From IMG/VR virus record IMGVR_UViG_3300014494_000003: DNA of 45,855 bases, one strand, 5' to 3'. The translations under genes and the position numbers were made by a program. The stretch is from a virus. The notes beneath the pieces were generated by a model, which searched no databases, was not told the origin of the DNA, and saw only the letters and a list, made by a program, of their open reading frames with translations. Below, piece by piece: positions 1,132 through 30,731 of this stretch; the first letter of the stretch is position 1, and every line of letters begins with the position of its first letter.

Positions 1132-1944
1132 ATGAAACTGGAGGATCTGCGCCAGCTCGCGTACCTGGACCTGGACGAAGATCCGGCCAGCCCGAGGTAC
1201 TACACGGACGCCGAGGTCCGCGACGCGCTCAATGAGGCGGAGCGGTTCTTCTGCCTGCTGACGCTCTGCCTGGAGACGACCCGGCCTTTCGCGCTGACGC
1301 CTGGCGTGCGGTTCTACCCGCTGCTGCGCGAGTGGCACGACTGGATTGCGCCGCTGCGCGTGCGCTTGTCGAGCGACGTGGCGGAAGGGATCACCGCGCT
1401 CGACGACGGCGTCACCGCCGACACGGCCATGCCGAACGAGCAGGCGCATCCGGGCCTGGTCGCTTCAGCGACGCCAAAACTAGCCCCCTCGACCATGAGC
1501 GAGATGTGGGGTCTCAATTCCGACTGGCTGACCGCCACGGGCTACCCTGAGCGCTACGGATGTCTGGGCTTCGATCTGCTGTTTCTCGACAAGGTGGCGA
1601 CGTTGGGCGGCGTCAAGCTGCTGATCACCTACGCGCGGTCGCCGCGGCCGATGGTGCTGGACACCGACGCGCCCGAAATCCTCGAGGCCGACCATCACGC
1701 GCTGGTGGATGGCGCGGTCTCGCTGCTGCGGATGAAGGAAGGCGGCGACGAGCTGGCTGGCGCCATGGCCGGACTCGGCCGCTACCTACAGGTGGCCGCG
1801 AAGCGTGCGGCCCAGGTGCGGGGCCGCAGCCTGGCGCAACGCTACGACAAGCTCCCGCTGGAGCTGGAACGCTACGACTTCTCGCGGCTGCTCAAGATCC
1901 GGCCCGACCTGGCGCCGCATCGCAAGGGGGTTCCGAATGGTTGA
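1132..1944 (+). CDS. Hypothetical virion protein (adaptor or tail-associated by position)
   Basis: ATG preceded by gagggg. Third codon positions are G/C-rich. It lies between the tailspike and the large tail protein. The N-terminus (YYTDAEVRDALNEAERFF) resembles the N-termini of 1937..2551 and 43979..44839. Confidence 0.6.
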   Translation: MKLEDLRQLAYLDLDEDPASPRYYTDAEVRDALNEAERFFCLLTLCLETTRPFALTPGVRFYPLLREWHDWIAPLRVRLSSDVAEGITALDDGVTADTAMPNEQAHPGLVASATPKLAPSTMSEMWGLNSDWLTATGYPERYGCLGFDLLFLDKVATLGGVKLLITYARSPRPMVLDTDAPEILEADHHALVDGAVSLLRMKEGGDELAGAMAGLGRYLQVAAKRAAQVRGRSLAQRYDKLPLELERYDFSRLLKIRPDLAPHRKGVPNG

Positions 1945-6398: not shown

Positions 6399-6431
6399 GG
6401 GGGCTGTTGCCGATTGAAGGAAGAGGGGGAT

Positions 6432-6938
6432 ATGGGGATCACGGTCGCATCGCCGTTTCCGGCTTGGGCGCTGCCCCAAGTGTGGGCCTGGATCGAGTCG
6501 TTCCGAGACCGCGTGTGTGACGACTACGCCCCGAAGTCCCTGGATGAATTCCTGGCGGAGTGGGAACAACGGCAGCCACGGGAGCGGAGCTGGGCGGTCT
6601 ACGAAGAAGACGAGATCGGCGGCGTGATCGCCGTGCAGACCGTCAACCCGGATGCGGCGCTGTGCCGCTGCTACTTCAAGCGGGCGGCCTGGTCGACGGC
6701 GGTGGTCGTGCCGGCGCTGCGGGCGGTCTACGCCGAGGTATTCCAGGGCTCCACGGTCAAGATCAGCCTGCCGGTGTTCGAGGACAACTGGGATTTGCGG
6801 CGGCTGGCGCTGAACGCCGGCGCCGTCGAGGAGACGCCGAAGCATCGGCCTTTGCGCGACGCGACCAGGCGCGACGGGAAGTTGATCGGGGTTCGGATTC
6901 TATCGGTTTTCAAGGGGGTGAGCCATGGGGTTGCTTGA
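6432..6938 (+). CDS. GNAT-like acetyltransferase-fold protein (degenerate)
   Basis: ATG 6432 follows gaaggaagaggggga. The pattern WAVYEEDEIGGVIAVQ...ALRAVYAEVF...VKISLPVFEDNWDLRRLALNAGAVEE...RDGKLIGVRILSV matches the strand/helix layout of RimJ/L-type GNATs. The Q/RxxGxG/A loop is not obvious. Confidence 0.45.
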   Translation: MGITVASPFPAWALPQVWAWIESFRDRVCDDYAPKSLDEFLAEWEQRQPRERSWAVYEEDEIGGVIAVQTVNPDAALCRCYFKRAAWSTAVVVPALRAVYAEVFQGSTVKISLPVFEDNWDLRRLALNAGAVEETPKHRPLRDATRRDGKLIGVRILSVFKGVSHGVA

Positions 6939-7569
6939 CACGTTGGGTTCGATCGGGGGGGCGATAGCGGCTCCTTTCACGGGGGGTCTGAGCTCCCTCT
7001 TGATGCCCGCGCTGGGTGCGGTGGCCGGCGGGTTGAATAACCGCAGCACCTTGTCGGCCGGGCAGAAGGCGGTCTCCGGCTCGCTGGAGGACCAGCTCAA
7101 CTCGATCATGACCGACCCGAGCGCCGGGACGAATCCCATGCGCGTCGCCGGGCGGGCGCAGATCAATAGCCTGTACGCGGGCGCGCCGGACCAGATCGCG
7201 CGCCAGATGTACGCCCGCGGCTTCGGGGCCAGCGGCAAGGAGGGCAAGGCGGTGATTCAGTCCGACATGGCGCGGCGCGGCCAGATGTCGAACCTGGAAT
7301 CGCAGCTCGCCGAGTACGCCCTGCAACGCCAGCTCGCGGCGATGAAGATCGCGCAGGGGTACGTCGAAAGGCCGGTGGGCGGGAACGTCGCCGGCGGCGC
7401 GATCTCGGGGGGACTCCAGACTCTCATGGCGATGATGACGGCCAAGGGCGGGGCCGGCGGCGGGGGCGGCGGGCTGACGGTGAACAACCTGCCGACCTGG
7501 AACGGAAGCGCTGGGGGGCTGACGCCTTACCAGCTCTCCCCTGGCTACGGCGTGGACTACGGGGGGTAA
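6925..7569 (+). CDS. Gly-rich internal virion protein (candidate)
   Basis: ATG 6925 overlaps the upstream gene by 14 nt. The protein has Gly/Ala-rich hydrophobic ends and a G6 run. Assignment is by position ahead of the giant ORF. Confidence 0.5.
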   Translation: MGLLDTLGSIGGAIAAPFTGGLSSLLMPALGAVAGGLNNRSTLSAGQKAVSGSLEDQLNSIMTDPSAGTNPMRVAGRAQINSLYAGAPDQIARQMYARGFGASGKEGKAVIQSDMARRGQMSNLESQLAEYALQRQLAAMKIAQGYVERPVGGNVAGGAISGGLQTLMAMMTAKGGAGGGGGGLTVNNLPTWNGSAGGLTPYQLSPGYGVDYGG

Positions 7570-7575
7570 ACCAAC

Positions 7576-8823
7576 ATGCCAACGAACAACCCGATCATCG
7601 ACGGGATCATGGACGGGCTCCTGATCCGCGAGCACATGGCGAAGATGACGCAGGACCAGGGCGACTACGAACACCGCATGGCGGCGGACCAGCGCGCGCA
7701 GCAGGAGTTTGAGAACAACATCGTCCAGCAGCGATGGCAGCACCAGCACCAGCAGACTCAGGACCAGCTTCAGGACATCAACACGCGCCTGGCGCTGGGC
7801 ACGAACCCGGGCCTGATCCAGGTGCAGCCAGGCGAGGACACGCGCACGGTGCAGTTGCCGCTCGACGAGACGATGCAGAAGGCCTACGGCGGCATCCCTG
7901 CGCTTTCGATGAGCGTGCCGATCGACAACACCGTCGAGTATGGCGGCCGGCGCTACGCCATGCGCAGCGCGGAGGAACTCGAAGCCGACAAGATGCGCGA
8001 TCTGAACGCGACCAGCGCGCTGAAGCTGAAAGACACACTGGCGGCGAAGAGCCTGGAGCAACAGATGAACCAGGTGTATGTGCCGGGCATCGGCTACGTG
8101 GACAAGAGCGTCGCTCCGAGCTTCATCAACTCGGCGTCGCGGGAGAAGGAGGGCGCGGCGAACCGAACCAACGCCGTCACGGTCGCCAACATCCGCGGCT
8201 CGGCGACGCGCGACACAGCGGCGCGCCGCGACCAGTTGACCCCCAGCGGGGTCGAGTCTGTCCAATCCAACATCCGTAGGGATTTGGCCGCTCAAGAGCG
8301 GGCCGAAGCGCCGCTGGAGCAACTGCGCCAGCGGATCAAAGCCAAGGGGGATGGTAAAGCACTCAACTACACGACCTTCGATAGAGACGGCCTTCCGGCT
8401 ACTGTCAGTCTCACGTCAGAGGAGGCCACACAACGGCTCGGGGAAGTGGAGAACTCGCTGGCCGGGATTCGCAAGAAGAAGGCGCAGATCTACCAGCGCA
8501 TGCTGAACCACGGCTTCATCACTAGCGACGACTACGAGCGCATGGTCGGCGATTTGGGTCTGCCACCCGAACAGAAGACGCCCTCGCCGGCTCCCCAGTC
8601 GCACGCGCCCACAGCCGCTCCCACGCCGGCGCCGACGCCTGCGCCGAAACCGGCGGCAGCTCCGGCGGCCAATCGCCCCGCCAGCGCCGCCTCAACCGCG
8701 AGGCCGCCGCAGGCTGCGCTCGACGCCATTCCGCCCGGGCAGACGGCGACGTTCCGCAATGGCCAGGTGTGGACGAAGAACGCCGCTGGCCAGGTTACCC
8801 AGATCCAACCGCAGGCCCAGTGA
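7576..8823 (+). CDS. Gln-rich coiled-coil internal virion / ejection protein (candidate)
   Basis: ATG 7576. The protein has a QQ/HQ-rich helical N-terminal half and a Pro/Ala-rich tail. Its stop overlaps the start of the giant ORF. Confidence 0.5.
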   Translation: MPTNNPIIDGIMDGLLIREHMAKMTQDQGDYEHRMAADQRAQQEFENNIVQQRWQHQHQQTQDQLQDINTRLALGTNPGLIQVQPGEDTRTVQLPLDETMQKAYGGIPALSMSVPIDNTVEYGGRRYAMRSAEELEADKMRDLNATSALKLKDTLAAKSLEQQMNQVYVPGIGYVDKSVAPSFINSASREKEGAANRTNAVTVANIRGSATRDTAARRDQLTPSGVESVQSNIRRDLAAQERAEAPLEQLRQRIKAKGDGKALNYTTFDRDGLPATVSLTSEEATQRLGEVENSLAGIRKKKAQIYQRMLNHGFITSDDYERMVGDLGLPPEQKTPSPAPQSHAPTAAPTPAPTPAPKPAAAPAANRPASAASTARPPQAALDAIPPGQTATFRNGQVWTKNAAGQVTQIQPQAQ

Positions 8824-11800
8824 TGCCGAGCGAATGGGACATCGTCGATGTGTCGAAGCCGCCCGCCAAGCCCGACCCTTGGGCGGTCGTCGCGATCTCC
8901 CCATCCGCCACGCCGGCACCGCCCGCCGCTGACTCGAGCCCCAACGTCCCCGGTGCCGAGAAGACCGGCCTGCCCGGTCTGCCCGCCATGCCCGTCTCGG
9001 TGACCGAGGAGCCGACGCTCCTCGAGCGCATCGGCAACGTGTTCGGTAAGGGCGCGCAGAATGCTGCCGACTTTCTGCTGCAGAACGCCAAAATGGGCAT
9101 TGCGCCAGGCGCGCCCGTCGCTGCTGCGGCCCCTCCGCCGGGAATTACCGCGAAGCAGGCGACGCAGGCGGCCAAGACCTACGAGACCCCGATGCTCCCG
9201 GTCTCCGAGTTACTCCCCGAGAGTCCCAACGACGGGAACGTGACTAAGTTCGCCAGGGGGGCGCTCCAAGGGGCCGAGGGGCTGACCACTCCGGTCAACC
9301 TGGCGCTGATGGCGGCGCTCGGCGCGGCCGGAGCTACGGCCAGGGCGTCAGTTGAACCGGCAGTACAGCAAGGCTGGCATTTGGCCGACGCGGCGCTTTC
9401 CGCCTACTTCTCGGGCCAGGCCGCGCACGGATTGTATGGTGCCGGCAAGGATGCCGTGGAAGCGGTCGGCAAGGGCGACTGGGGCAAGGCCGCGACCGAC
9501 CTCGGTTTGGGCACGGTGGACGGTCTGATCGCCTACTTGGGAGCGCGCAATGCCTTCAAGAACGTGCAGGGCGCGGCGGAGATCGGCCGGACGCAGCGCA
9601 TTCTCCAGGAGAACCTGAACCGGCGGGAGGCCGCGCGGCGTGCGGCTGAACCCAAGCCTGCCACGGAGTCGATTCCGCCTGCTTCCGGCGCAGTTCCCAC
9701 CGCGACGCGGCTGCTGCCTCCTGGGGAAGCGCCCGAAGCCAAGCCGCCAGCGCCGCCGCCTGAACTGCCGGGAGGGAAGAAGCTGCTGGCCCCCGGAGAA
9801 GCGCCGCTGCCCGAACCGCCGCCTGAAGTGCCTGCCGGATGGCAGATCGTCAAGAGCGAGCCCGCGCCTGAAGTCGAGCCAGCGGCTCCTCGCTCGGGGA
9901 GCGCGTGGCCGCAGGGGATCGCGCCGCCCGTGGGCGTCGAGGTGTTCGACCGCGCGGCGGAGCTGGCCCGGAGCCGAGGCAGCATTTCGCCTATCGTGCT
10001 TCAGCGTGAGCTGGAGATTCCACAGCTCGAGGCTCAGGGACTCTTCCGCCGCCTCATTGGCCAGGGGGTCGTCGACCGGATTGGACGCATCCCCGCGCCG
10101 CCGGAGGATTCCGGACCGGCAGCGGCCCCGCCCCAGAGTGGAGCAGCCAAGGGCGCGCCCGCGATCCAGCCGAAGCCCGACTCAGTCGATTACTACGACC
10201 AGGCTGTCAGCCTGGCGCGCCAGAACGGCGCGATCAGCCGCACCGGTCTGCAGAACGCGTTCGGCCTGAACCGGGACGACGCGCAGTCGCTGCTCAGCCG
10301 GATGATCCAGGGCGTCAACGGCGAGCCGGGCGTGGTCTCGCCGAACGGTAGGTTGATCGCTCCGCAGAAACCCGCTGTTGCGCCGGGCGGCCAGCGGGAG
10401 CTGCCGCTTGTGGCGCAGGGACCGGCGCAGGCGAGCCCGGAGAGCCCGGTCGAGGCTCCTCCATCCCCCGAAGCTCCCCCGCTTCCGCCAGCGGCCCCGC
10501 AGCCGCCGCAAGCGACGCTCTACGACCGCGCCGTCGAGTTCGGCGCGAAGTACGGCAAGGTCAGCCAGGCCGGTCTGCGGCTGCACCTGGGCATTAGCGC
10601 CAGTCGCGCCGACTCGCTTCTGACGCAGTTGTCGCAAGCGGGAAAGATCGACCCGAACACCAAGAAGTGGATCGGCGGCAGGACCGCCCCCATCGGCAAG
10701 CCGGCTCCTCCGCAGATTCTCCCCATAGACAACCGCCCGCCCATGACCTCGGCCCAGCCGGGCGCGCCCGTGACTCCGCTCCCGGCGCCGGCGCCCGCGC
10801 CCGCGGGCGATTTCGAGGGCGCGGCCGACGATCTTCCGCCCGAGCGGGTGGGCCGCACGGAAGAGGTCAGCACGCCCGAGGGGACGAAGGCGCAGGCGCA
10901 ATGGCGGGTCGTCGATCTCGCCCACGACAACCTGCTCACGTCGCACAGTTACGCCGGGGTGGAGAACCCGGAGTATCCGCAGGAGTATCAGAACCGCGAC
11001 CGCTCGCGCATCGCCAGCGAGACGCAGATCCGCGGCATCGCCGCCAACCCGGTTGCCAAGCGGCTCAGCCAAAACTACCTGACGAGCGAGGGCGCGCCGA
11101 TCTACGCCAACCGCGACGGCCGGCGGACGGTCATCTCCGGAAACGGGCGGACGGAAGCGATCAAGCTGGCCTACAAGCAAGGCACCGCCGCGGGCTACCG
11201 CGCGGGCCTGCCCGAGGAGCTGACCGCCGCCGGGATCGATCCGAAGGTGCTCGAAGGAATACAGCAGCCGATGCTGTCCAGGGCGCTGGTCGGCAAGATG
11301 CCGCTCGGCCGCATCGCCCGGGAATCCAACGCGCCCAGCGTCGCCGAGCGCAGCCCGGTCGAGCTGGCGCGGGCGGATGCCAAGCGCCTCACCGGCGCGC
11401 TGATGGAAGCCTTCAAGCCAGGCGAGGACGGGCGGATCGTCACCACCGAAAACTGGCCCTTCATTCAAACCTTCTTCCGCGAGCTGCTCACCGCCGCGGA
11501 GCGGGGGAAGTACACGCTCGGCAACGGCGGCATCAACCAGGCCGGCATCGCGCGCATTCGCAACGCGGTTTTCGCCAAAGCCTACGGGGAGTCGGCCGCG
11601 CTCGAAAACGTGGCCGAGGATCCCGACGACAATGTGCGCAGCATCACCGCCGCCATGCTGCGCGCGGCTCCGTCGTTTGCGCGCGTGGGGGAAGGCGTCG
11701 CCGCGGGCACGCTCCACGATCTCAACATCGCGCCCGACGTTGCCGCCGCCGCCGGCAAACTGTCGAGCCTCCGCGCGCAGGGCACCACGGTCGAGGACTA

Positions 11801-14800
11801 CCTGAACCAGGAGGAGCTGTTCGCGCCCGAACTGTCCCCGCTGGGCCGCGAGATGCTTCGCGTCTTCGGCGTCCACAGCCGCAGCTCCGCCCGGCTGGCG
11901 GAGATTCTGACTAACTACGCCAGCGCCGTCGAGGCGCTCGGCAGCCCTCAGCAAGCCAGCTTGCTGGGTGATACAATTCCGACCAGGGCCGAAGTTCTCG
12001 AGGCGGCAGTCGAGGCCACCGAGGCGAGAGCCAAGCTCCTGGCTGAGCAGCGAAAGGCCAAGAAAGATGTACAGTCCCAAGCACGTAACGACGCGGCCGG
12101 CAGTGGTGGCGAAGTTGGTGACGTTGATGGACAAGGTCCATCAGGGCCAGACCGCGCAGCAGATCCGGCAGGAGTTCGAGCAGGAGCAGAAGCTCCGCCA
12201 GTTCAATCCGCCCCCCGGCAGCAAGCCCCAGTAGCGCCGTCGCCCCGACCTCTAGAACCGCAGCAACCGCCCGCGGCTACGACTGCGGCCTGGCGAGCGG
12301 GTGCTTCGGCGTTGCCTATCGACGTTCAGGAGATTCGTGATTGGTTGCGGGACAACGAAGGGACCGGGAAGCCTGCGACCGTTGAGTACGCGAGGCAGTA
12401 CCTGGCTGGGGCGGACTCTCAGGCCCGGCCGATGCCGCAAGCCGAACCGGCGGCGCAGCCGAAGGCGGAGGCATCCGCACCTGCCCCGCGCTTGCCCCAC
12501 GAGCTCGCCAGTGCGAAGCCGAACTATGCCTTCGGAGCGAAGGAGTTCGCCCTCGATTTCGAGAGCGACATCGACAAAGCGGCTTTCATCGCCGCGCAGT
12601 TTAAGCCATCGAAGGCCGATGCGCAGTACGTTGGCTTCGTTCGCCAGGCGACGGGGCTGTCGACGCAAGCGGTTCGATCCGCCGGTGTGCGCGTGCGCTC
12701 GGCCATCAAGGAGTTGGCGCGTGACGCAGAACCGGGAGTGCTGCGCGTGCCGGACGTCTTGGGGCGGCGCCTGAAGCCACCAGGGGGCGAGACATTCTTC
12801 GCCCCGAAGTTGAAGGATGCCCGCGGCGCGCGAAGCCCGCAAGAGTACTTCGCCGCGGCCGACTCCCGATACGAGGCGTTGCTGCGGGATCGACCTGGCC
12901 ATATTTACGTGAACGCCCCGGCCCACGGGTTAATTGTGAGCGCGCTGCGCCACGCGGGCCTTCCCGCGCAGAACTTCGCCGGCCTCACGCTGGGACCGGC
13001 GGATGCCAACTTGCTGTACCGCGCCCTCGGGGAGTTTGAACAGACCGAGCAGGAGCCCGGCGTCCGCGCCGCGATTGGTCAGATGCGCGCGGCCATGCGC
13101 CAGGCGGCTGGCGAGAGCAAGACTCTGACTTTCGTAAGGAGCGGCCCCGACGTCTCCGCCATGGAACGGCGGACCGCGCGGCGGGAGGAGGAATTCCATC
13201 GGCAACAAATTCTGCGCACGCGCGGGAAGGTGCTCGAAGGTCATGTCGACTCACAGCGCCTCAGTCAAAACCAAACGGTTCACAAAGGCCTGAGGGCCAT
13301 AGAGCGTGACCGCCACGAGACCGGGCAGCGCGCTTATGTGGAACTGGCTGCGAGCTTGGCCAGCGGGCAGTGGGGAGATCTCGGGCTGACGCGAGAGGAG
13401 GCCATCGATGCGCTCCACGCTTACATCGGCGAGATCGTCCGGCTCCACGGAGACCAGGCAGGAGGTATTATCAACCATGTCCACCCAGCAATCCGAAACG
13501 CTGTCCAGGAACGACTGGCGGCATCCGGACAACCTGCAACAGTGGCTGCGCGAACGCTACGGCGACGGCCAGGTCACGACGCCGGGCCAGGTAGCGGCGG
13601 ACAATTTTACCGACCTCTTCGAGGCGTACCGGAGGGGCGGCCAGAAGACCTTCCGAGCCAAGTTCGATCAGATCTTTCCGCCCGAACAGCACCCGTAGAA
13701 CACGCCGGGCCCGGAACTCTGGACCTATTCGGAGAAGAGGCCAACCAAACCAGCCGCGAAGCCGCCAAGAGCGATGCCGCCAAACTCGAAGCCGACCGGC
13801 TCACCGCCGAGTTCGGCAGCGCGCTGAATCGCAATAACCTCCGCAAGAAACTGAAGCCCGGCGAAAAGCCGCAACAGGGCGACCTGTTTGGAGGGATGCC
13901 GGAGAAACCCGCGCAGGGCAAGCTACTGTTTCAGAAGGGCGGGACTGGTCCGCACGGTCCGATCTTCACCGAGTTCCGGCATGACGCCGCCGGCGCGATC
14001 GCCAAGCTGCGCCAGGCGCAGAGCGGCGAAGCCGTGGCGGCGCTGCACCATCCCGCGGTCGGGGACATTGATCTGATTTGGGGCGAGAGCGGCACTAGTC
14101 CGGGAAACGGCTACGGACTGGCAAAGCTGGCGAAATGGCATCCGGAAATCCTGGACAACCTGCAGGAGACGCTGGACACGATGACCGCTGCGGCGCGCAA
14201 CGAGAACACGGTTCAATTGGACAGCGCGACGCACCACGCTGTCGTCCGCAGAAATTGGAAAGGGAACCCTAAGACTTGGCTGCTAACGGCCTTCGAAAAG
14301 AAGCAGCCGTCACTAGCCGGAAGGACGATGGACATTTCCGGCACGCGAGAGGCGCGGCGGGATGACACAGCTCCCCCGCCGAGTGGCGGCACTTCCAGTA
14401 TGGCCCCAACCGGAGAGGGCGGCAAGCGGGAAAAGACCTCAGATTTCTGGAAAGACGAGAGCGGCGAATTCGACCTGGCGAACCTGCGGGCAGGGCTGCG
14501 CGAGAAGTTCGGCGAAGCGGCGAACCAGGCCAACTACACCGGTCTGGGAGCCAAGGACATATTCCTACGCAACTTGTCGCAATTGGAGAAAACTAGCTCC
14601 GCGGGCCACGCCGCAGCGGTCCGTGCGGCCGCCAGCAAGGGACAAGTGGCAGCACTGCTGCGCGCCGCCGTTCCGCGCATCGAGGCGGCCATTGGCAAGC
14701 GCGGGCCGACGTGGACCGAGTTCAGAACGGCGTTGATCGAAAGCCGGCTGCGGGGGATCCGCGAGCGGTGGCGCGCCATGGCCGAGCAGGCTCTCGACAT

Positions 14801-16943
14801 GAGCCCGGCGCAGATGCAGGCCAGCTTCGACAATGGCGTGCTGACGCTGCTGGAGAACATCCAGGACAAGCGAGGCCTCGGGCAAGACTTGGCCGAAACC
14901 GCCGCCGCGATGTTCCAGTCCGCGCAGGAGGGCGACCTGGCGCAGAAGAAACCCGGAGAGCCCGCCTACCCCGTGCTGAGCGAGGGCCCCCACCTGCGGG
15001 CGCTGCGAGACTTTCTCTCGACCACTTACCTCGACGCGGCCGAGTCGGTGGCCGAAGTCTTGCCGGATGAGTTCTTCCATCGTATTACCAGCAGCCCTGG
15101 ATTTGCGCGCGGCCTCGAAGCGTACCGCGAACTGCTCGAGAAGCCGATGGCCGACAATCACGCCCTGAACGAGGGCGTGTTCAGCGATGCTCTGGGCCCG
15201 GTGGGAGCCTACTATCCGCTGGTGCCGGTCACGAGCGCCGAGGCGGCGCAGGCGAAAGCCCCGGGAACGACCTCAGGCTACCGCAAGCCGCGCAACATCT
15301 CCAATGATTTCGCCACGGGCCTCGCGCTCCGGTACGACGCGGGAATGGAGGCGCTGCGCAACCGCTTGACGCGAGCGATCAAAGCTAACAACAAAGCTGC
15401 GCTGATCCAGACGCTGGAAGACGAAGGGCTGCTGCGGAAGATGCGGCCGAACGAAGTAGCGGGGGACGTCATCAACATCGGCGGCGAGGATTTCAAGGCC
15501 GACTACATCAAATCCGAAGGCGTATTGGTTCCGACCTGGCTCCGAAAGGAGCTGGTTCCGATTCTGGAACTCGAAGGCCGGCCGCACCAGCTGGTTCAAT
15601 ATGTCAACCAGGTGATGCAGGTGTTGAACAAACTCTCTCTAGTGGGGCCGCTCAATCTCGTTTACCATGCCACGAACCTGCTGGGGACTTTGACCTTCAA
15701 CACACCTTTCATCCCCGGGTCTGTCCTGGGGGAGAAGGTTGGCAACTCGCCGTTAACAAAACAGTTCTACGCCCTGGTGCGCATCCTTCACACCGACCCC
15801 ACAACCGCGGACGCGGTTGCAGACATGACCGAGATGGCCAAGGTGGGCGCCTTGCCCGACCGCTTCGGCTCGGAGACCTTCTCCCAGCGGTTCGCCGAGC
15901 AACTCGGCGCCGAAGACAAGATGTGGAGGTTCGAAGTGGGCGGTAGGAATCTGGCCCTCCCGAAGAGCGCGGGTCCGATCCTCTTCGGCCCCAAGGGCAT
16001 GGACATTCGGGCGCGCCTGCTGATGTGGCGGATCGCGAAACAACTCCAGCCGCAGGGGAACCCGCAAAGCTGGGCTAGGTCCACGAATCAACTCGGCGTC
16101 TACGTGCGTGGGATGCAGAGCGACATAGAACGCGCGCTGAAGGCGAGCGGTTTCTCTCCGTTCTTCACCGCCGGTTCCACGATGGTGCGCAACGGGATCA
16201 ACGGCTTTCTGGGACGTGGCCCGATCACGAGCGACAAGTTCAGTTATCGACTAAAACAACTACTGACGGGGGGGGCCCCTGCGCTCATCGCCATCTGGGC
16301 TCTGATCAACAAGGCGTACCGGGGCAAGTGGCCCTGGGAAGAGCCAAATTCGAAACTCTTGGCGTTCGCCGTGAAGCCGGCCGACCGCAATTCCGCACTG
16401 GGCCGGGCGCTGTGGGGCTCGAAGCCGGGCACGGCCTACGTGAATCTGGCCTTCATCAATCCGTTGCTGGCGCGCGGCCTGCGCGCACTGGGCATCATGG
16501 ACGCCTACGAGACGCGGCAGCTCGGCGGGTCGTTCGATCAGATCACGAAAGCCGCAGTAAAGGGATCGGCGAATGCGTTTATCGGGCCGGCCGCCGGCCC
16601 TCTGGTGCGGACCGGCATGATCGCCGCGACGGGCCGCGAGCCGTATCTGACGGACGTGCAGGATGTGACCTTCATGCGAGCGGCGGCGAAAAAGCCGGGA
16701 TTCCTACGCAGTCGCGTCGAGTATGGCAAAGAGGCCGCGCTCAGCCTCAATAATTTCTTTGGCAACCTGGCCACGGCTACTGGGATCGGGTACGAAGCGG
16801 AGCGCGCAGCGAAGACCGGTAACGCTGCGTTGCGGATGCTCACCGATCTGGCTGCACCCCGCCTGGTGGGAACGGTTTCGGATCAGTCGGCCAAAGCGAG
16901 ACGGCTGGCCAACGAGCGCCGGGCAGCGGCGCGGGAGCGGTGA
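8823..16943 (+). CDS. Giant polyvalent virion protein, 2,706 aa: 3x FtsK-gamma-like wHTH, a ParB/Srx-like module, a small nuclease-like module and a hydrophobic C-terminal third
   Basis: ATG 8823 overlaps the upstream TGA. There is no frame-0 stop for 8.1 kb. Recognisable modules are separated by Pro/Ala-rich linkers (see findings). The position is equivalent to the ejected core proteins of podoviruses. Confidence 0.7.
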   Translation: MPSEWDIVDVSKPPAKPDPWAVVAISPSATPAPPAADSSPNVPGAEKTGLPGLPAMPVSVTEEPTLLERIGNVFGKGAQNAADFLLQNAKMGIAPGAPVAAAAPPPGITAKQATQAAKTYETPMLPVSELLPESPNDGNVTKFARGALQGAEGLTTPVNLALMAALGAAGATARASVEPAVQQGWHLADAALSAYFSGQAAHGLYGAGKDAVEAVGKGDWGKAATDLGLGTVDGLIAYLGARNAFKNVQGAAEIGRTQRILQENLNRREAARRAAEPKPATESIPPASGAVPTATRLLPPGEAPEAKPPAPPPELPGGKKLLAPGEAPLPEPPPEVPAGWQIVKSEPAPEVEPAAPRSGSAWPQGIAPPVGVEVFDRAAELARSRGSISPIVLQRELEIPQLEAQGLFRRLIGQGVVDRIGRIPAPPEDSGPAAAPPQSGAAKGAPAIQPKPDSVDYYDQAVSLARQNGAISRTGLQNAFGLNRDDAQSLLSRMIQGVNGEPGVVSPNGRLIAPQKPAVAPGGQRELPLVAQGPAQASPESPVEAPPSPEAPPLPPAAPQPPQATLYDRAVEFGAKYGKVSQAGLRLHLGISASRADSLLTQLSQAGKIDPNTKKWIGGRTAPIGKPAPPQILPIDNRPPMTSAQPGAPVTPLPAPAPAPAGDFEGAADDLPPERVGRTEEVSTPEGTKAQAQWRVVDLAHDNLLTSHSYAGVENPEYPQEYQNRDRSRIASETQIRGIAANPVAKRLSQNYLTSEGAPIYANRDGRRTVISGNGRTEAIKLAYKQGTAAGYRAGLPEELTAAGIDPKVLEGIQQPMLSRALVGKMPLGRIARESNAPSVAERSPVELARADAKRLTGALMEAFKPGEDGRIVTTENWPFIQTFFRELLTAAERGKYTLGNGGINQAGIARIRNAVFAKAYGESAALENVAEDPDDNVRSITAAMLRAAPSFARVGEGVAAGTLHDLNIAPDVAAAAGKLSSLRAQGTTVEDYLNQEELFAPELSPLGREMLRVFGVHSRSSARLAEILTNYASAVEALGSPQQASLLGDTIPTRAEVLEAAVEATEARAKLLAEQRKAKKDVQSQARNDAAGSGGEVGDVDGQGPSGPDRAADPAGVRAGAEAPPVQSAPRQQAPVAPSPRPLEPQQPPAATTAAWRAGASALPIDVQEIRDWLRDNEGTGKPATVEYARQYLAGADSQARPMPQAEPAAQPKAEASAPAPRLPHELASAKPNYAFGAKEFALDFESDIDKAAFIAAQFKPSKADAQYVGFVRQATGLSTQAVRSAGVRVRSAIKELARDAEPGVLRVPDVLGRRLKPPGGETFFAPKLKDARGARSPQEYFAAADSRYEALLRDRPGHIYVNAPAHGLIVSALRHAGLPAQNFAGLTLGPADANLLYRALGEFEQTEQEPGVRAAIGQMRAAMRQAAGESKTLTFVRSGPDVSAMERRTARREEEFHRQQILRTRGKVLEGHVDSQRLSQNQTVHKGLRAIERDRHETGQRAYVELAASLASGQWGDLGLTREEAIDALHAYIGEIVRLHGDQAGGIINHVHPAIRNAVQERLAASGQPATVAARTLRRRPGHDAGPGSGGQFYRPLRGVPEGRPEDLPSQVRSDLSARTAPVEHAGPGTLDLFGEEANQTSREAAKSDAAKLEADRLTAEFGSALNRNNLRKKLKPGEKPQQGDLFGGMPEKPAQGKLLFQKGGTGPHGPIFTEFRHDAAGAIAKLRQAQSGEAVAALHHPAVGDIDLIWGESGTSPGNGYGLAKLAKWHPEILDNLQETLDTMTAAARNENTVQLDSATHHAVVRRNWKGNPKTWLLTAFEKKQPSLAGRTMDISGTREARRDDTAPPPSGGTSSMAPTGEGGKREKTSDFWKDESGEFDLANLRAGLREKFGEAANQANYTGLGAKDIFLRNLSQLEKTSSAGHAAAVRAAASKGQVAALLRAAVPRIEAAIGKRGPTWTEFRTALIESRLRGIRERWRAMAEQALDMSPAQMQASFDNGVLTLLENIQDKRGLGQDLAETAAAMFQSAQEGDLAQKKPGEPAYPVLSEGPHLRALRDFLSTTYLDAAESVAEVLPDEFFHRITSSPGFARGLEAYRELLEKPMADNHALNEGVFSDALGPVGAYYPLVPVTSAEAAQAKAPGTTSGYRKPRNISNDFATGLALRYDAGMEALRNRLTRAIKANNKAALIQTLEDEGLLRKMRPNEVAGDVINIGGEDFKADYIKSEGVLVPTWLRKELVPILELEGRPHQLVQYVNQVMQVLNKLSLVGPLNLVYHATNLLGTLTFNTPFIPGSVLGEKVGNSPLTKQFYALVRILHTDPTTADAVADMTEMAKVGALPDRFGSETFSQRFAEQLGAEDKMWRFEVGGRNLALPKSAGPILFGPKGMDIRARLLMWRIAKQLQPQGNPQSWARSTNQLGVYVRGMQSDIERALKASGFSPFFTAGSTMVRNGINGFLGRGPITSDKFSYRLKQLLTGGAPALIAIWALINKAYRGKWPWEEPNSKLLAFAVKPADRNSALGRALWGSKPGTAYVNLAFINPLLARGLRALGIMDAYETRQLGGSFDQITKAAVKGSANAFIGPAAGPLVRTGMIAATGREPYLTDVQDVTFMRAAAKKPGFLRSRVEYGKEAALSLNNFFGNLATATGIGYEAERAAKTGNAALRMLTDLAAPRLVGTVSDQSAKARRLANERRAAARER
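12067..12234 (+). CDS. Nested +1-frame small ORF, 55 aa, inside a linker of the giant ORF
   Basis: ATG preceded by gaaagg..agaaag, ending in TAG. By hand count, 50 of 55 codons end in G/C in this frame, against about 20 of 56 in the giant frame over the same span. Confidence 0.4.
   Translation: MYSPKHVTTRPAVVAKLVTLMDKVHQGQTAQQIRQEFEQEQKLRQFNPPPGSKPQ
13477..13698 (+). CDS. Nested +1-frame small ORF, 73 aa, inside a second linker of the giant ORF
   Basis: AGGAGG at 13460..13465, then an AT-rich spacer gtattatcaacc, then ATG; it ends in TAG. By hand count, 61 of 73 codons end in G/C here, against 32 of 74 in the giant frame. Confidence 0.45.
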   Translation: MSTQQSETLSRNDWRHPDNLQQWLRERYGDGQVTTPGQVAADNFTDLFEAYRRGGQKTFRAKFDQIFPPEQHP

Positions 16944-21709: not shown

Positions 21710-21912
21710 TGAATCCGGAAGCGGCGGGGTTTCATCTGATGGTGGCGGCGCTGAATGCCGTCGACGAGCTGCTCGAGATTCCCCGGCTGCCGGCGAGTCC
21801 ACGGTATGCGGATCTTCCCGCTGACGAGCGGGCGATGCGCGAGGCGTGGGACGAAGAGACCCGGCGGCTGGAATCGCAGGCCCGCCTCAATGCGGCCGGG
21901 GGGTGGCTATGA
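21706..21912 (+). CDS. Hypothetical protein, 68 aa
   Basis: ATG 21706 is in an ATGA overlap with the micro-ORF. Confidence 0.45.
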   Translation: MMNPEAAGFHLMVAALNAVDELLEIPRLPASPRYADLPADERAMREAWDEETRRLESQARLNAAGGWL

Positions 21913-22736
21913 GCACGGTGCTGGAGTTCAGGAAGGGGGCGGCGACGGCCGCCCCCTCCGAGCAATTGGGCCTGGCCGACGTGCTTTCTCCATCCCAGGT
22001 GGCCACGTTCCTTGCCTGCCCTGCCAAGTGGTGTTTTAAGTATCTCCTGGATCTGAAGGAACCGAAAACCAGCAGCCTGGCGGTCGGCCTGGCTGTGCAT
22101 GCGCCCATCACGCAGGCCCTGGAGTGGAAGCGGTTGAACGGCATGGATGTCGAGGCCGGCGCCGTCGATGAGCTGTTCGAGCAGGCCTGGGCCGAGGAGA
22201 CGGACCAGACGGAGTTTCGCGACGATGAGGAGCCGGGCCAGCTCCACGACCAGGCGCGGGCGATGGTGCGGAAGTACATGACGGAGGCGGCGCCCTACCT
22301 CAAGCCCGCGGCGGTCGAGCTGCCGATCGCGGGCGAGATCGGCGGCGTGCGGATCCGCGGGCGGCTCGACATCCTGGAGGAGGATGGCTGCGTCACCGAG
22401 ATCAAGACGGCCGCTCGAAACCCGGGCGACGAGATGACGACCGATCACCGGGCGCAGCTCGCCACCTATTGCCTGCTCTGCCCGAAGGCCTCGGGCAAGG
22501 CGCGGCGGGATACGATCACGAAAACCAAGGTGGTGCAGATTGTCCCGCAGCCGATTGAGATCGGGCCGGCGGACGTGGCCTACCTGGAGGCGATCTATCC
22601 GCAGGCGCAGGAGGCGATGCGGGACGGCGTCTTCTACCCCCGCCGCGATTCGACGATGTGCAGCCGGAAGTACTGCGCGTTCTGGCGCGACTGCGAGAAC
22701 GAGTACGGCGGCGTGGTGAAAGGCGGTGGACGATGA
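21909..22736 (+). CDS. PD-(D/E)XK nuclease, Cas4/RecB-like, with a Cys cluster
   Basis: The start is in an ATGA overlap. GRLDILEEDGCVTEIKT provides the D...ExK motif. An N-terminal Cys (FLACPAKWCF) plus the C-terminal CSRKYCAFWRDC fit an Fe-S cluster pattern. Confidence 0.8.
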   Translation: MSTVLEFRKGAATAAPSEQLGLADVLSPSQVATFLACPAKWCFKYLLDLKEPKTSSLAVGLAVHAPITQALEWKRLNGMDVEAGAVDELFEQAWAEETDQTEFRDDEEPGQLHDQARAMVRKYMTEAAPYLKPAAVELPIAGEIGGVRIRGRLDILEEDGCVTEIKTAARNPGDEMTTDHRAQLATYCLLCPKASGKARRDTITKTKVVQIVPQPIEIGPADVAYLEAIYPQAQEAMRDGVFYPRRDSTMCSRKYCAFWRDCENEYGGVVKGGGR

Positions 22737-23452: not shown

Positions 23453-24022
23453 ATGGCCTGGCCTAAGGGAGTCCTCCCTAAGTACTTGACAGAAGAGGAG
23501 TTACTGGCCTTGCTCGCGGGCATCAAAGACCCGCGCGACCGGGCTATGTTCACCCTCGGATTCTGGCGTGGGCTGCGGGCCAGCGAAATCGGGTTGCTGC
23601 GGCTCGAGTTCTGGAAGCCGAAAACCGGCCGGCTGTTCGTGCGACGCCTGAAGGGGTCAATCAGCCAGGACTACCGTCTGCTCCCCGATGAGGAGCGGGC
23701 GCTGCGGGCCTGGTTGCGAGTCCGGGGCAAGGTGCCCGGGTTGCTGTTCGGTGGGTACAAGGGCCGGGGGATCGGACGCCGGCAGCTCGACCGGCTCATG
23801 AAGCAGTACGGAGCTGCGGCGGGCATTCCTCCGGAAAAGCGGCACTGGCACATCCTGAAGCATAGCTGCGGGACGTACCTGCGCGACCACGGCGAGGCAA
23901 TCGAGATGGTTCAAGACCACCTGGGGCATGCGTGCATCACGTCGACGATGATCTACGCGCATACGACGACGCGCCAGCGCGATGGGCTGGCGGACCGGCT
24001 CTCATTGCTTCGCGTCGCGTGA
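23453..24022 (+). CDS. int: Tyrosine recombinase, short (189 aa), FimB/FimE-like size
   Basis: The motifs are WRGLRASEI (Arg I), HILKHSCGTYL (HxxK where HxxR is expected) and LGHACITSTMIYAH (His/Tyr). Confidence 0.85.
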   Translation: MAWPKGVLPKYLTEEELLALLAGIKDPRDRAMFTLGFWRGLRASEIGLLRLEFWKPKTGRLFVRRLKGSISQDYRLLPDEERALRAWLRVRGKVPGLLFGGYKGRGIGRRQLDRLMKQYGAAAGIPPEKRHWHILKHSCGTYLRDHGEAIEMVQDHLGHACITSTMIYAHTTTRQRDGLADRLSLLRVA

Positions 24023-24960: not shown

Positions 24961-25256
24961 TGAAAGGACTTACACCGAAGATTTAGGGTTTGCGCGGGCG
25001 CGGCGGTTGGGAGTAAAATCGTGGCGATCTTAGCTCTGTACCGGCGGGGTCCGAGCGACCCATGCACTTTTGTTCAACCTGTCCCGCCGGATTTCGGCAT
25101 CATGACGTCATAAGCGGAGCGGGTGGCTGGCACCGAAGTATACGTTATCGGAAGCTGAGCCCTCGCCCGGAAAGTAGAGAAGTGGGAAATGGGCAACACG
25201 GAAGGTTCCTCCTGTAGGTCTGGTGTTCCCCCTTGTGGTCTCGGTTGGAGGCGCGT

Positions 25257-30215: not shown

Positions 30216-30731
30216 ATGGCACCGAAGAGTAAACCGAGAAAGCCCACCAGCCAGGCCAAGCGCAGAGTTCGGCGCGTGAAGGTCGCGCAGGGATTACTGG
30301 CCGGCAAGACGCCGGCGGTGATCGCGCAGGAAGAGGGGATCAGCCGCGCGACAGCTTGCCGCGACGCTGCTTCTCCCGAATGCCGCATCCTCATCGCGAA
30401 GGCCCTGGACGGGCGCGCGGTGCGTATCGAGTCGCTCATAGATGATTCCTTGGACGCCATCGCCGCGGCGCTCAAGGCCTGCGCGTTTCAGCTCGTCGTC
30501 ACCGACACCACGAAGGGCGAAGGCGGCGAAGTGCGCACGCACAAGTCCGTGCAAGTGGGCGTCGACCACTACGCGCGCATGACCGGGGTGCGGCGCCTGA
30601 TTGACCTCTGTCTCGCTGGGAGACCCACTCCGAAACCCGATGAGGGACCCAAGGAGCTGGAGTCGATCACGTTTGAGCAGTTCAAAACTCTCCTGGAGAA
30701 ACACACCCGTGGAAATACAGGCACGGAATGA
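30216..30731 (+). CDS. Small terminase-like protein with an N-terminal HTH
   Basis: It has a basic N-terminus, then AQGLLAGKTPAVIAQEEGISRATACRD. It lies upstream of TerL. Confidence 0.45.
   Translation: MAPKSKPRKPTSQAKRRVRRVKVAQGLLAGKTPAVIAQEEGISRATACRDAASPECRILIAKALDGRAVRIESLIDDSLDAIAAALKACAFQLVVTDTTKGEGGEVRTHKSVQVGVDHYARMTGVRRLIDLCLAGRPTPKPDEGPKELESITFEQFKTLLEKHTRGNTGTE

What the first reader, a model, noticed from the sequence alone, without database searches (positions are those of the whole stretch)
8823..16943. A 2,706-codon ORF in the ejected-core-protein slot that looks like a virion-delivered polyvalent protein
One stop-free frame of 8.1 kb follows two internal-virion-like genes and ends the structural operon. 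This is where podoviruses encode proteins injected with the DNA. Instead of a single ejection protein, it is a string of separable modules joined by Pro/Ala-rich linkers:
- an N-terminal Gly/Ala-rich region
- three FtsK-gamma-like winged helices
- a ParB/Srx-like module
- two helical blocks
- a small nuclease-like module
- a C-terminal stretch of about 850 aa with hydrophobic segments (for example LLTGGAPALIAIWALI)

Linker motifs such as LDLFGEE and QGDLFGG recur. This is the architecture described for polyvalent proteins of phages and conjugative elements, which are thought to act on arrival in the new host for anti-restriction and DNA protection. A triple DNA-binding array fused to a putative ejection or membrane module is not a combination I recognise.
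Basis: partly seen in the sequence, partly recalled or inferred. Interest (0 to 1): 0.8.

Follow-up and report, generated by a model that had tools for sequence, protein, structure and literature searches.

The report
Giant multi-tool protein of a phage
This 2,706-residue phage gene strings DNA-binding, ParB-like and RNase-like "arrival tools" onto a conserved 800-residue tail module. That module anchors more than a thousand giant proteins of uncultured phages, so this is a new variant of a known kind of virus-delivered protein, not a new kind of system.

Summary
The ORF is real: 8823..16943, 2,706 codons, ATGA-coupled to the upstream gene, 17.7% of a 45.9-kb circular phage genome.

- three FtsK-gamma-like winged helices
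- a DdrB-type ParB region, 35% identical to phage P1 DdrB
- a PBECR1 RNase-like domain
- an ~800-aa C-terminal module

It is a phage-type polyvalent protein. It sits where Bcep22-like, Stx and phiARM81mr-like phages encode a giant last structural gene; mass spectrometry detected that protein in JC1 and phi24B virions. Delivery of this one is inferred, not shown.

What is new is the chassis. The C-terminal module has no match in Pfam, PHROGs, the PDB, GenBank phages or PLSDB plasmids. Yet it defines 1,011 representative clusters, mostly at the extreme C-terminus of 1,400-5,700-aa proteins with shuffled cargo, and sometimes stands alone. It models confidently (pLDDT 90, pTM 0.88) as one compact helical body. 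Its only fold matches are terminal segments of other uncultured-phage polyvalent proteins. A second conserved module (aa ~120-260) marks the N-terminus of a subset.

Hydropathy does not support the "membrane segment" idea. Verdict: new variant of a known kind, moderate interest.

The parts
8823..16943 (+). Giant ORF: 2,706 aa polyvalent protein, 17.7% of the genome
9180..9602 (+). N-module (aa ~120-260). Gly/Ala-rich conserved block with the pattern 'ALSAYFxxQ...GDWxxAAxxLGxGxVDGL'. Found near the N-terminus of at least 21 other giants that carry the same tail module.
9927..10106 (+). Winged helix 1, FtsK-gamma-like (aa 369-428)
   Evidence: E 0.0018
10179..10364 (+). Winged helix 2, FtsK-gamma-like (aa 453-514); the weakest of the three
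   Evidence: E 0.13; 40% identical to winged helix 1
10509..10682 (+). Winged helix 3, FtsK-gamma-like (aa 563-620)
   Evidence: E 0.00019
10842..12023 (+). DdrB-like region (aa 674-1067): ParB/Srx core at aa 686-820 plus a helical extension. The SGNGRT and QNRDRSR motifs are conserved with P1 DdrB.
12426..12767 (+). Block 'mid1' (aa ~1202-1315). No known family; recurs in 4 other family giants.
   Evidence: no Pfam hit
12828..13691 (+). Block 'mid2' (aa ~1336-1623). No known family; recurs in 6 other family giants.
   Evidence: no Pfam hit
13704..13946 (+). Linker element (aa ~1628-1708) with two D-L-F-G motifs (TLDLFGEE, QQGDLFGG). Recurs in 8 other members, mostly right before the tail module.
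13944..14306 (+). PBECR1 (barnase/EndoU/colicin-E5/RelE-like) predicted RNase, aa ~1708-1828
14520..16940 (+). C-module (aa 1900-2706): conserved ~800-aa tail module modelled as a compact helical fold. It defines the family.
6414..8823 (+). Three tightly packed upstream genes (174, 214 and 415 aa) with no significant family match (one sub-threshold GNAT hit). Genes of matching size and order precede the giant in L002, L010 and L015; L003 has only part of the pattern. Candidate partner virion or ejection proteins, by position only.
1132..1944 (+). SU10-type head-to-tail adaptor, which marks the start of the tail-side structural genes
   Evidence: 45% identical to its L005 counterpart

Best explanation
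**What it is.** The ORF encodes a phage-type polyvalent protein: a beads-on-a-string array of independent modules joined by Pro/Ala-rich linkers. It is the last long gene of the late structural block; two short + ORFs follow before the strand switch. The phage is distantly related to the 933W, Bcep22 and phiARM81mr group.

**Shown here.** Domain identities, the conserved N- and C-terminal modules, the family-wide layout of variable cargo in front of a fixed C-module, and the gene's position.

**Inferred mechanism.**
1. The protein is made late. It is packed into the capsid through its conserved end modules and leaves through the tail with, or just ahead of, the DNA, as shown for P1 Dar proteins and N4 vRNAP.
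2. In the new cell, the three FtsK-gamma-like winged helices and the DdrB-type ParB module bind the incoming double-stranded DNA and shield or mark it against restriction. P1 DdrB is a component of the P1 Dar anti-restriction set.
3. The PBECR1 module cuts host RNA.
4. The C-module, together with the N-module where present, is the ancestral virion or ejection component. It exists on its own in some phages. Cargo modules have been repeatedly inserted in front of it or swapped.
For: - **Domains.** ddrB-ParB E 1e-21, PBECR1 32.5 bits, and three FtsK_gamma-like winged helices. The region is 35% identical over 279 aa to P1 DdrB, with the SGNGRT arginine motif kept.
- **P1 precedent.** Dar proteins including DdrB are internal head proteins co-ejected with the DNA (PMC12810830; PMC5512222).
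- **Phage context.** TerL, major capsid protein, SU10 adaptor and a sigma factor are present. The start is ATGA-coupled to the upstream gene.
- **Family.** The C-module profile finds 1,011 representative clusters (285 at E <= 1e-30). In 124 full-length hits the median N-terminal extension is 1,407 aa and the median C-terminal tail is 5 aa; 13 stand alone.
- **Cargo in other members.** Sno/SNF2 helicases, Eco57I-type methylase, ParB, FtsK_gamma, a 2H ligase, His-phosphatase, ART-PolyVal, and an N-terminal SLT lytic transglycosylase as in T7 gp16.
- **Shuffling.** The window's own modules recur in other members at other positions.
- **Cultured analogues.** Three giant last structural genes, each preceded by small virion-protein genes where neighbours are reported. 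Two were detected in virions by mass spectrometry: JC1 gp69 (4,515 aa, 51 peptides; PMC9144972) and phi24B gp47 (2,811 aa). phiARM81mr p69 (3,190 aa, MTase + ddrB-ParB + LPD38) is only annotated as a putative virion structural protein.
- **Terminase link.** The window's TerL is about 28% identical to the TerL of phiARM81mr and other listed phages. The 672 matching records also include many Stx2-converting, Ralstonia and Burkholderia phages.
- **Fold link.** The C-module model (pLDDT 90.2, pTM 0.88) matches only terminal segments of uncultured-phage proteins named as polyvalent: 32 hits at E <= 1e-3, mostly prob ~1.0, TM 0.18-0.44 normalised to the query.
Against: - There is no direct evidence of packaging or ejection for this protein or for any member of its C-module family.
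- None of 50,697 GenBank phage records carries the C-module at tblastn E <= 1.
- The protein has no zincin metallopeptidase, the usual processing hub of polyvalent proteins.
- The C-module is predicted as one rigid ~800-aa body, which is awkward for passage through a tail channel unless it unfolds or stays behind.
- It has no clear membrane helix.
- It has no fold match to solved ejection proteins.
- It shows no profile similarity to LPD38-type tails (hhalign probability below 1%).
- The upstream genes have no detectable relation to known ejection proteins.
Confidence: 0.7

Rival explanations
1. The C-module is itself an enzyme or effector, not a packaging or ejection chassis. It might act on the envelope or on nucleic acid in the new host. 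Its constant C-terminal position would then reflect a folding or processing constraint, not a delivery role.
For: It forms a confident, compact globular fold, unlike the extended, poorly modelled shapes typical of ejection proteins. About a dozen invariant or near-invariant polar residues sit in short motifs: HxxNEG, PxNxxN, HSxNL, GxDxRAR and QLGNY. It also occurs alone as an 835-1,150-aa protein.
Against: It matches no known enzyme by sequence or fold. It lies at the extreme C-terminus in nearly all members whatever the cargo, whereas effector domains in this family are shuffled freely. The stand-alone genes occupy the same last-late-gene slot.
Confidence: 0.15
2. The protein is a late-expressed intracellular factor that is never packaged. 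It might act on progeny or host DNA in the producing cell, or in superinfection exclusion. Its place among the structural genes would then be only a matter of timing.
For: There is no packaging evidence for this family, no peptidase, and the predicted C-module is bulky.
Against: The closest characterised relatives of both the domain (P1 DdrB) and the gene slot (JC1 gp69, phi24B gp47) are virion proteins. One family member starts with an SLT domain, which is useful only at cell entry. The gene is translationally coupled to the preceding late gene.
Confidence: 0.1
3. The long ORF is an artefact: an assembly chimera, or separate genes fused by sequencing errors.
For: It comes from a single metagenome contig seen in one sample. 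In relative L005, the ParB gene and the tail-module gene are called separately.
Against: A coding signature runs through all 2,706 codons. More than 100 independent representative proteins share the same layout of cargo plus tail module. In L005 the two ORFs overlap in different frames and the tail module is broken a second time, so L005 is the sequence with the errors or decay.
Confidence: 0.03

Closest known systems
Phage-type polyvalent proteins (Iyer, Burroughs, Anand, de Souza, Aravind 2017, J Bacteriol; PMC5512222)
   Same: Many unrelated modules sit in one polypeptide. It carries the hub domains DdrB-ParB and PBECR1 and the rare FtsK winged helix. It lies in a late, virion-gene neighbourhood, and its modules are shuffled among relatives.
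   Different: It has no zincin metallopeptidase, methylase-helicase dyad, ART or MuF. It has none of the numbered LPD domains held in Pfam. It ends in an ~800-aa module that is not in Pfam.
Giant last structural gene of Bcep22-like, Stx and phiARM81mr-type phages (Burkholderia phage JC1 gp69, 4,515 aa; phi24B gp47, 2,811 aa; Aeromonas phage phiARM81mr p69, 3,190 aa)
   Same: The giant gene closes the morphogenesis block and is preceded by small genes of ~200 and ~450-500 aa. The terminases are related (~28% identity). phiARM81mr p69 also carries ddrB-ParB. JC1 gp69 and phi24B gp47 were found in virions by mass spectrometry.
   Different: Those proteins end with an LPD38-containing tail. The window protein has no LPD38 by Pfam, and hhalign probability is below 1%. 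Its tail module is a separate sequence family that has only fold-level resemblance to terminal segments of proteins named as polyvalent.
Phage P1 DdrB (Dar anti-restriction system)
   Same: The N-terminal ~300 aa of DdrB aligns at 35% identity, with the ParB arginine motif conserved. DdrB is an internal head protein co-ejected with the DNA.
   Different: DdrB is 995 aa with a C-terminal peptidase-like region and works within the DarA/Hdf/DarB/Ulx set in a myovirus. Here only the ParB region is shared, and no Dar partner turned up among the window genes that were scanned.
Coliphage N4 virion RNA polymerase gp50 and its ejection cassette gp51/gp52
   Same: A ~3,500-aa beads-on-a-string protein is encoded next to two small ejection-protein genes. 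Its end domains serve injection and encapsidation, and its central part acts in the cytoplasm.
   Different: There is no sequence or fold relation. The cargo there is an RNA polymerase, not DNA-binding and nuclease modules.

Membership tests
Polyvalent proteins (Iyer et al. 2017) | Two or more domains of disparate biochemical activity in one polypeptide | tested here: met
   ParB/Srx-type domain, PBECR1 RNase-like domain and winged-helix DNA binders
Polyvalent proteins (Iyer et al. 2017) | Encoded by a phage or conjugative element next to virion or transfer genes | tested here: met
   The phage has TerL, a major capsid protein and an adaptor. The ORF is the last long gene of the late + strand block; two short + ORFs follow
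Polyvalent proteins (Iyer et al. 2017) | Carries recognised hub domains of the polyvalent network | tested here: met
   DdrB-ParB and PBECR1; both are named as hubs in PMC5512222
Polyvalent proteins (Iyer et al. 2017) | Zincin metallopeptidase for processing (the most common hub, not obligatory) | tested here: not met
   No peptidase family at E <= 1 in Pfam
Polyvalent proteins (Iyer et al. 2017) | Injected into the recipient cell with the DNA | not testable with these tools
   Needs virion proteomics and infection assays
P1 DdrB orthologue | DdrB-type ParB N-terminal region with the conserved arginine | tested here: met
   35% identity over 279 aa, E 1e-42, SGNGRT conserved
P1 DdrB orthologue | C-terminal peptidase-like region and a dar operon partner set (DarA, Hdf, DdrA, DarB, Ulx) | tested here: not met
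   The alignment stops at DdrB residue ~300. No Dar-family hit among the window genes scanned; not every ORF was scanned
LPD38-tailed giant virion proteins (JC1 gp69, phi24B gp47, phiARM81mr p69) | Giant gene closing the morphogenesis module, preceded by small virion-protein genes | tested here: met
   Gene sizes of 174/214/415/2,706 aa here, against 196/510/4,515 in JC1 and 212/124/85/466/3,190 in phiARM81mr. Position and size only.
LPD38-tailed giant virion proteins (JC1 gp69, phi24B gp47, phiARM81mr p69) | LPD38 domain near the C-terminus | tested here: not met
   No LPD38 hit at E <= 10. hhalign of the C-module against LPD38 tails gives probability 0.1-0.2%.
LPD38-tailed giant virion proteins (JC1 gp69, phi24B gp47, phiARM81mr p69) | Detected in purified virions | not testable with these tools
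   Uncultured phage
Podovirus ejection proteins (T7 gp14/15/16, P22 gp7/20/16, N4 gp50-52) | Sequence or fold relation to a solved ejection protein | tested here: not met
   No PDB hit by sequence or by fold (best E 0.047)
Podovirus ejection proteins (T7 gp14/15/16, P22 gp7/20/16, N4 gp50-52) | Membrane-inserting helices | tested here: inconclusive
   Two marginal segments only, Kyte-Doolittle 19-residue means of 1.28 and 1.49
FtsK gamma domain (PF09397) | Score above the Pfam gathering cut-off | tested here: inconclusive
   The whole protein scores 31.8 bits against a cut-off of 30.6, summed over repeats. Each repeat alone is below the cut-off at 12-21 bits, but FtsK_gamma is the top hit for all three.
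C-module family (defined here) | Full-length match to the ~800-aa profile at the C-terminus | tested here: met
   The window sequence seeds the profile. It is 40-45% identical to P0030-P0038 (73-100% of the query, >=93% for seven of the nine) and 33% to P0001/P0002.

The most novel reading that the evidence does not exclude
The ~800-aa C-module, with the N-module in a subset, is a previously undescribed delivery chassis. It has a fold with no solved relative and is used by a large, so far uncultured group of phages, possibly soil phages of Acidobacteriota, to carry interchangeable arrays of anti-defence and takeover enzymes into the host. If so, everything fused in front of it in more than a thousand protein clusters is a ready-made catalogue of injected effectors, including unnamed modules such as mid1 and mid2.
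Probability: 0.35. Interest if true: 0.7.

Novelty: new variant of a known kind. Interest (0 to 1): 0.5.

Why it matters
Polyvalent proteins are thought to be the first phage weapons to act in a newly infected cell, but few have been studied.

This ORF belongs to a large unannotated branch of them: 1,011 representative clusters, with none found in GenBank phages, Pfam or PHROGs. The branch is held together by a conserved, confidently modelled 800-residue module that has no solved structural relative.

Recognising that module gives a simple rule for finding candidate injected effectors in metagenomes. It also supplies natural fusion points for testing what targets a protein to the capsid and out through the tail.

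For this phage in particular, it predicts an arrival kit built from DNA binders, a ParB-type NTPase/nuclease and an RNase. That differs from the methylase-helicase kit of Bcep22-like phages (JC1 gp69).

Tried and rejected
- **Nucleotide search.** Megablast of window 1-25000 against GenBank phages found nothing.
- **Whole-protein searches.** phmmer against PDB sequences and a scan of NCBIfam found nothing.
- **First structure model.** The first AF2 model of the C-module, built from 10 sequences, was poor (pLDDT 55). Its Foldseek hits were meaningless and were discarded. A 47-sequence alignment fixed the model.
- **LPD38 hypothesis.** I tested whether the C-module is a divergent LPD38 tail. Pfam, hmmsearch with --max, and two hhalign runs gave no signal, so I do not file it under LPD38.
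- **Membrane-segment reading.** Hydropathy gives only marginal segments.
- **Upstream-gene homology.** blastp and phmmer among the upstream genes of the window, L002, L003, L010 and L015 show conservation of size and order only; the sole cross-locus hit among these (L015 vs L010) was marginal, E 2e-4. tblastn of the 415-aa and 895-aa neighbours against GenBank phages found nothing.
- **Plasmids.** tblastn of the C-module against PLSDB found nothing, so there is no sign of a conjugative-element counterpart.
- **L005 as a split version.** It looked like a natural split, but the frames overlap and the tail module is broken twice. I treat it as error or decay.
- **Beta-clamp idea for Q-x-D-L-F-G.** The motif matches only Q1, L4 and F5 of the QLxLF consensus (PMC4549789). 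It is kept as a low-probability idea only.
- **Terminator.** No convincing terminator lies right after the ORF.
- **Unused or blocked resources.** The third large homology search was not used.
Full report
**1. Observation**

The ORF exists as described. On the + strand one frame is open through to the stop codon ending at 16943. The ATG at 8823 overlaps the stop of the preceding ORF (7576..8823) as ATGA. Translation from it gives 2,706 residues.

At about 67% G+C, roughly 2.3% of random codons are stops. A run of 2,706 stop-free codons therefore has a chance probability near 1e-27 (my arithmetic). GC3 exceeds GC2 in every 200-codon block, as in the neighbouring genes. GC3 dips to 0.64-0.72 in aa 1001-1200 and 1401-1800, which hints at a mosaic origin.

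The exact protein is on record once, on ENA metagenome contig ERZ27247323:k141_2258840 (45,873 nt). The window is a rotated copy of that contig. The contig ends meet at window 7053/7054 inside an ORF that reads through. The window therefore looks like a complete circular or terminally redundant genome, and the giant gene takes up 17.7% of it.

**2. Genome context**

The genome is a phage. Recognisable genes are:
- a sigma-70-family factor (30601-31245)
- large terminase (31212-32996)
- a major capsid protein (40435-41364)
- an SU10-type adaptor (1132-1944)
- a PD-(D/E)XK nuclease (21846-22736)
- a short tyrosine-integrase catalytic domain (23510-24022)
- a DnaA_N-containing protein (25233-26570)

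After the adaptor come an 895-aa protein with a weak internal-virion-protein match and a 477-aa protein. Then follow three tightly packed genes of 174, 214 and 415 aa, and then the giant ORF. The three small genes have no significant family match (one sub-threshold GNAT hit), and the 415-aa gene, the only one tested, has no PDB or GenBank-phage match.

No nucleotide relative exists in GenBank phages. The terminase is about 28% identical to that of Aeromonas phage phiARM81mr and other listed phages; the matching records also include many Stx2-converting (933W/phi24B type), Ralstonia and Burkholderia phages.

**3. Modules of the giant protein**

- Pfam gives ddrB-ParB at aa 686-820 (E 1e-21), FtsK_gamma, and PBECR1 at aa 1742-1828.
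- PHROGs has an unnamed family covering aa 674-1067 (E 5e-73).
- Scanned separately, all three winged-helix segments have FtsK_gamma as their best match (E 0.0018, 0.13, 0.00019). PBECR1 then rises to 32.5 bits, above its cut-off.
- The three winged helices are 24-40% identical to one another.
- The ParB region aligns with the N-terminal 300 residues of phage P1 DdrB at 35% identity (E 1e-42). The QxRDR and SGNGRT motifs are conserved, including the arginine that defines the ParB/Srx active site.
- In GenBank phages only this region (aa ~675-1050) finds matches, in 61 records.
- The stretches aa 1-360 and 1100-1700 have no Pfam family.
- Only two marginally hydrophobic segments exist, so the 'membrane segment' idea is not supported.

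**4. The C-terminal module defines a large family**

This was the main new result.

*Sequence relatives.* Residues ~1900-2706 align at 33% identity with the extreme C-termini of two other giants that carry quite different cargo:
- P0001 (3,517 aa): His-phosphatase, SNF2/helicase, and 'N12 class adenine-specific DNA methylase' in the source's own name.
- P0002 (2,159 aa): ART-PolyVal.

Searched alone, the module finds proteins that are 40-45% identical. Seven are stand-alone proteins of 835-1,150 aa matched over 93-100% of the query; two shorter ones (609 and 670 aa) cover 73-79%.

*Family size and layout.* An exhaustive profile search of 1.84 billion representative proteins gives 1,011 clusters at E <= 1e-3 and 285 at E <= 1e-30. 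Among 124 full-length matches:
- the median N-terminal extension is 1,407 aa (maximum 4,811)
- the median C-terminal overhang is 5 aa
- only 13 are stand-alone

Ten IMG/VR loci show the same thing; in eight of them the ORF holding the match is 1,931 to more than 4,269 aa.

*Absence from reference collections.*
- not in Pfam or PHROGs
- no match in PDB sequences, even with a profile
- no match in 50,697 GenBank phage records or 72,556 plasmids at tblastn E <= 1

In GTDB genomes it appears only in Solibacteraceae and Bryobacteraceae MAGs, a weak hint of acidobacterial hosts.

**5. Cargo in the family is diverse and shuffled**

In 14 giants Pfam finds:
- Strawberry-notch-type and SNF2 helicases
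- Eco57I-type methylase
- ddrB-ParB and FtsK_gamma
- a 2H RNA ligase and an intein
- in one case an N-terminal SLT lytic transglycosylase, as in T7 gp16

The window's own modules recur in other members in other orders (WH-like count):

| Module | Other representatives carrying it |
|---|---|
| ParB | 4 |
| mid1 | 4 |
| mid2 | 6 |
| PBECR1 | 2 |
| WH-like domains | 6 |

A ~70-aa linker element carries the two D-L-F-G motifs. It recurs in 8 members, mostly directly before the C-module, and it starts the stand-alone protein P0032. The strict motif is about eight times enriched in the 120 residues before the C-module, though it is present in only 8 of 124.

A second conserved block is the Gly/Ala-rich aa ~120-260. 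It lies within the first ~430 residues of 19 of at least 21 other members that carry it (two lie at ~430-760), including L010, L011, P0045, P0084 and P0001. The layout in that subset is therefore N-module, variable cargo, C-module. The later iterations of that search are self-reinforcing. However, the single-sequence hits (E 1e-15 to 1e-8) and the consistent N-terminal position argue that the relationship is real.

**6. Split and fused forms**

In L004 a 3,418+ aa polyvalent protein is followed by four small genes. Next comes a stand-alone 1,150-aa C-module gene, and then an Acb2/Tad1-type gene.

L005 is a true relative of the window phage: its adaptor is 45% identical and the 895-aa protein 35% identical. 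There an 837-aa ddrB-ParB gene abuts the C-module gene. But the two ORFs overlap by about 250 nt in different frames, and the C-module is interrupted again. This looks like sequencing error or decay, not a natural split.

Upstream of the giants in the window, L002, L010 and L015, genes of about 150-215, 215-277 and 415-610 aa recur in the same order with almost no detectable sequence similarity.

**7. Structure**

With 10 sequences the C-module modelled poorly (pLDDT 55). With 47 sequences it reached pLDDT 90.2 and pTM 0.88. The model is one compact, mostly helical body with three small beta elements.

Foldseek finds no solved relative; the best hit has E 0.047 and TM about 0.1.

Against predicted viral structures it finds 32 matches at E <= 1e-3, mostly with probability ~1.0, with TM 0.18-0.44 normalised to the query and 10-14% identity. 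Most are the last segments of long proteins of uncultured tailed phages; a few are whole proteins of ~950-1,350 aa. Their names include:
- 'large polyvalent protein associated domain-containing'
- 'RelA/SpoT'
- 'ART-PolyVal-like'
- 'LPD38 [Podoviridae sp.]'
- a 'structural protein' of a Flavobacterium podovirus

Profile-profile comparison with LPD38-type tails finds nothing; hhalign probability is below 1%. The relation to those tails is therefore fold-level at best and is not membership.

**8. Comparison with what is known**

The class is established. Iyer et al. 2017 defined polyvalent proteins, named DdrB-ParB and PBECR1 as phage-type hubs, and listed the FtsK winged helix as a rare DNA binder in them (PMC5512222).

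P1 Dar proteins, including DdrB, are internal head proteins co-ejected with the DNA (PMC12810830).

Giant polyvalent proteins as the last morphogenesis gene have been detected in virions of two podoviruses:
- JC1 gp69: 4,515 aa with LT-like, methylase-helicase, LPD3 and LPD38 domains; 51 unique peptides. It is preceded by virion proteins of 196 and 510 aa (PMC9144972).
- phi24B gp47: 2,811 aa (bioRxiv 10.64898/2026.04.10.717836).

phiARM81mr p69 (3,190 aa) combines a methyltransferase, ddrB-ParB and LPD38 in the same slot.

N4 vRNAP offers a mechanistic analogue. It is a beads-on-a-string giant ejected after two small ejection proteins. Its N-terminal domain joins the ejectosome (PMC13434306), and its C-terminal region is needed for encapsidation (as summarised in PMC5512222).

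**9. Mechanism and confidence**

Shown:
- domain identities
- the conserved end modules
- family-wide cargo shuffling
- the gene's position

Inferred:
- late synthesis, packaging via the conserved end modules, and ejection with the DNA
- the winged helices and the ParB module coating or acting on incoming DNA against restriction
- PBECR1 cutting host RNA

Confidence is about 0.7 that this is a virion-delivered polyvalent protein. It is about 0.5 that the C-module is the packaging or ejection chassis and not an effector in its own right.

The main tension is that a rigid 800-residue body is awkward cargo for a tail channel. It may unfold, fold only after ejection, or be the part that stays behind. 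Its invariant polar residues could equally mark an active site.

**10. Verdict**

The 'unrecognised combination' is one instance of a widespread but unannotated family. It is a new variant of a known kind. Interest is moderate (0.5), mainly for the C-module and N-module chassis and the effector catalogue it opens.

Noticed in passing
window 7053/7054 (inside ORF 6925-7569): The window is a rotated copy of a 45,873-nt metagenome contig. The contig ends meet here inside an ORF that reads through, which suggests a complete circular or terminally redundant genome.
   Followed up: partly
window 30601-31245: A phage-encoded sigma-70-family factor (regions 2 and 4) whose end overlaps the start of the large terminase gene. 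The placement is unusual, and it implies phage-directed late transcription.
   Followed up: no
window 23510-24022: A 170-aa ORF consisting only of a tyrosine-integrase catalytic domain (PF00589, E 2e-19). It may be truncated or a minimal recombinase.
   Followed up: no
window 25233-26570: A 445-aa protein with a DnaA N-terminal domain at aa 269-328 and no other recognised domain. It could be a replication-initiation hijacker.
   Followed up: no
window 11823-12422 and 13023-14222 (aa 1001-1200 and 1401-1800 of the giant ORF): GC3 falls to 0.64-0.72 here, against 0.8-0.9 elsewhere in the ORF and in neighbouring genes. This suggests the mid and PBECR1 modules were acquired more recently.
   Followed up: partly
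window 8835-8846 and 9840-9851 (aa 5-8 and 340-343): A short W-[DQ]-I-V motif followed by a Pro/Ala-rich tail sits at the very N-terminus and again before the first winged helix. P0045 has the same double motif and P0117 a single copy. Only 2 of 140 other giants examined have it within the first 60 residues.
   Followed up: partly
window 13722-13733 and 13881-13892 (aa 1634-1637 and 1687-1690): These are the two Q/T-x-D-L-F-G motifs in a linker element that recurs before the tail module in other family members. They loosely resemble the bacterial beta-clamp-binding consensus QLxLF (Q1, L4 and F5 only). Their function is unknown.
   Followed up: partly
L004 13517-13723: In a 67.6-kb contig, the stand-alone tail-module gene is followed directly by a gene with an Acb2/Tad1-hairpin domain, a family I recall as anti-CBASS/Thoeris nucleotide sponges. 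So the giant-gene slot borders an anti-defence gene there.
   Followed up: no
L005 9677-9925 and 11828-11839: In the closest relative, the ParB gene and the tail-module ORF overlap in different frames, and the tail module is broken a second time. This indicates either frameshift errors in that assembly or a decaying gene.
   Followed up: partly
alignment A4 members: One giant family member contains an intein splicing domain, and another begins with an SLT lytic transglycosylase.
   Followed up: no
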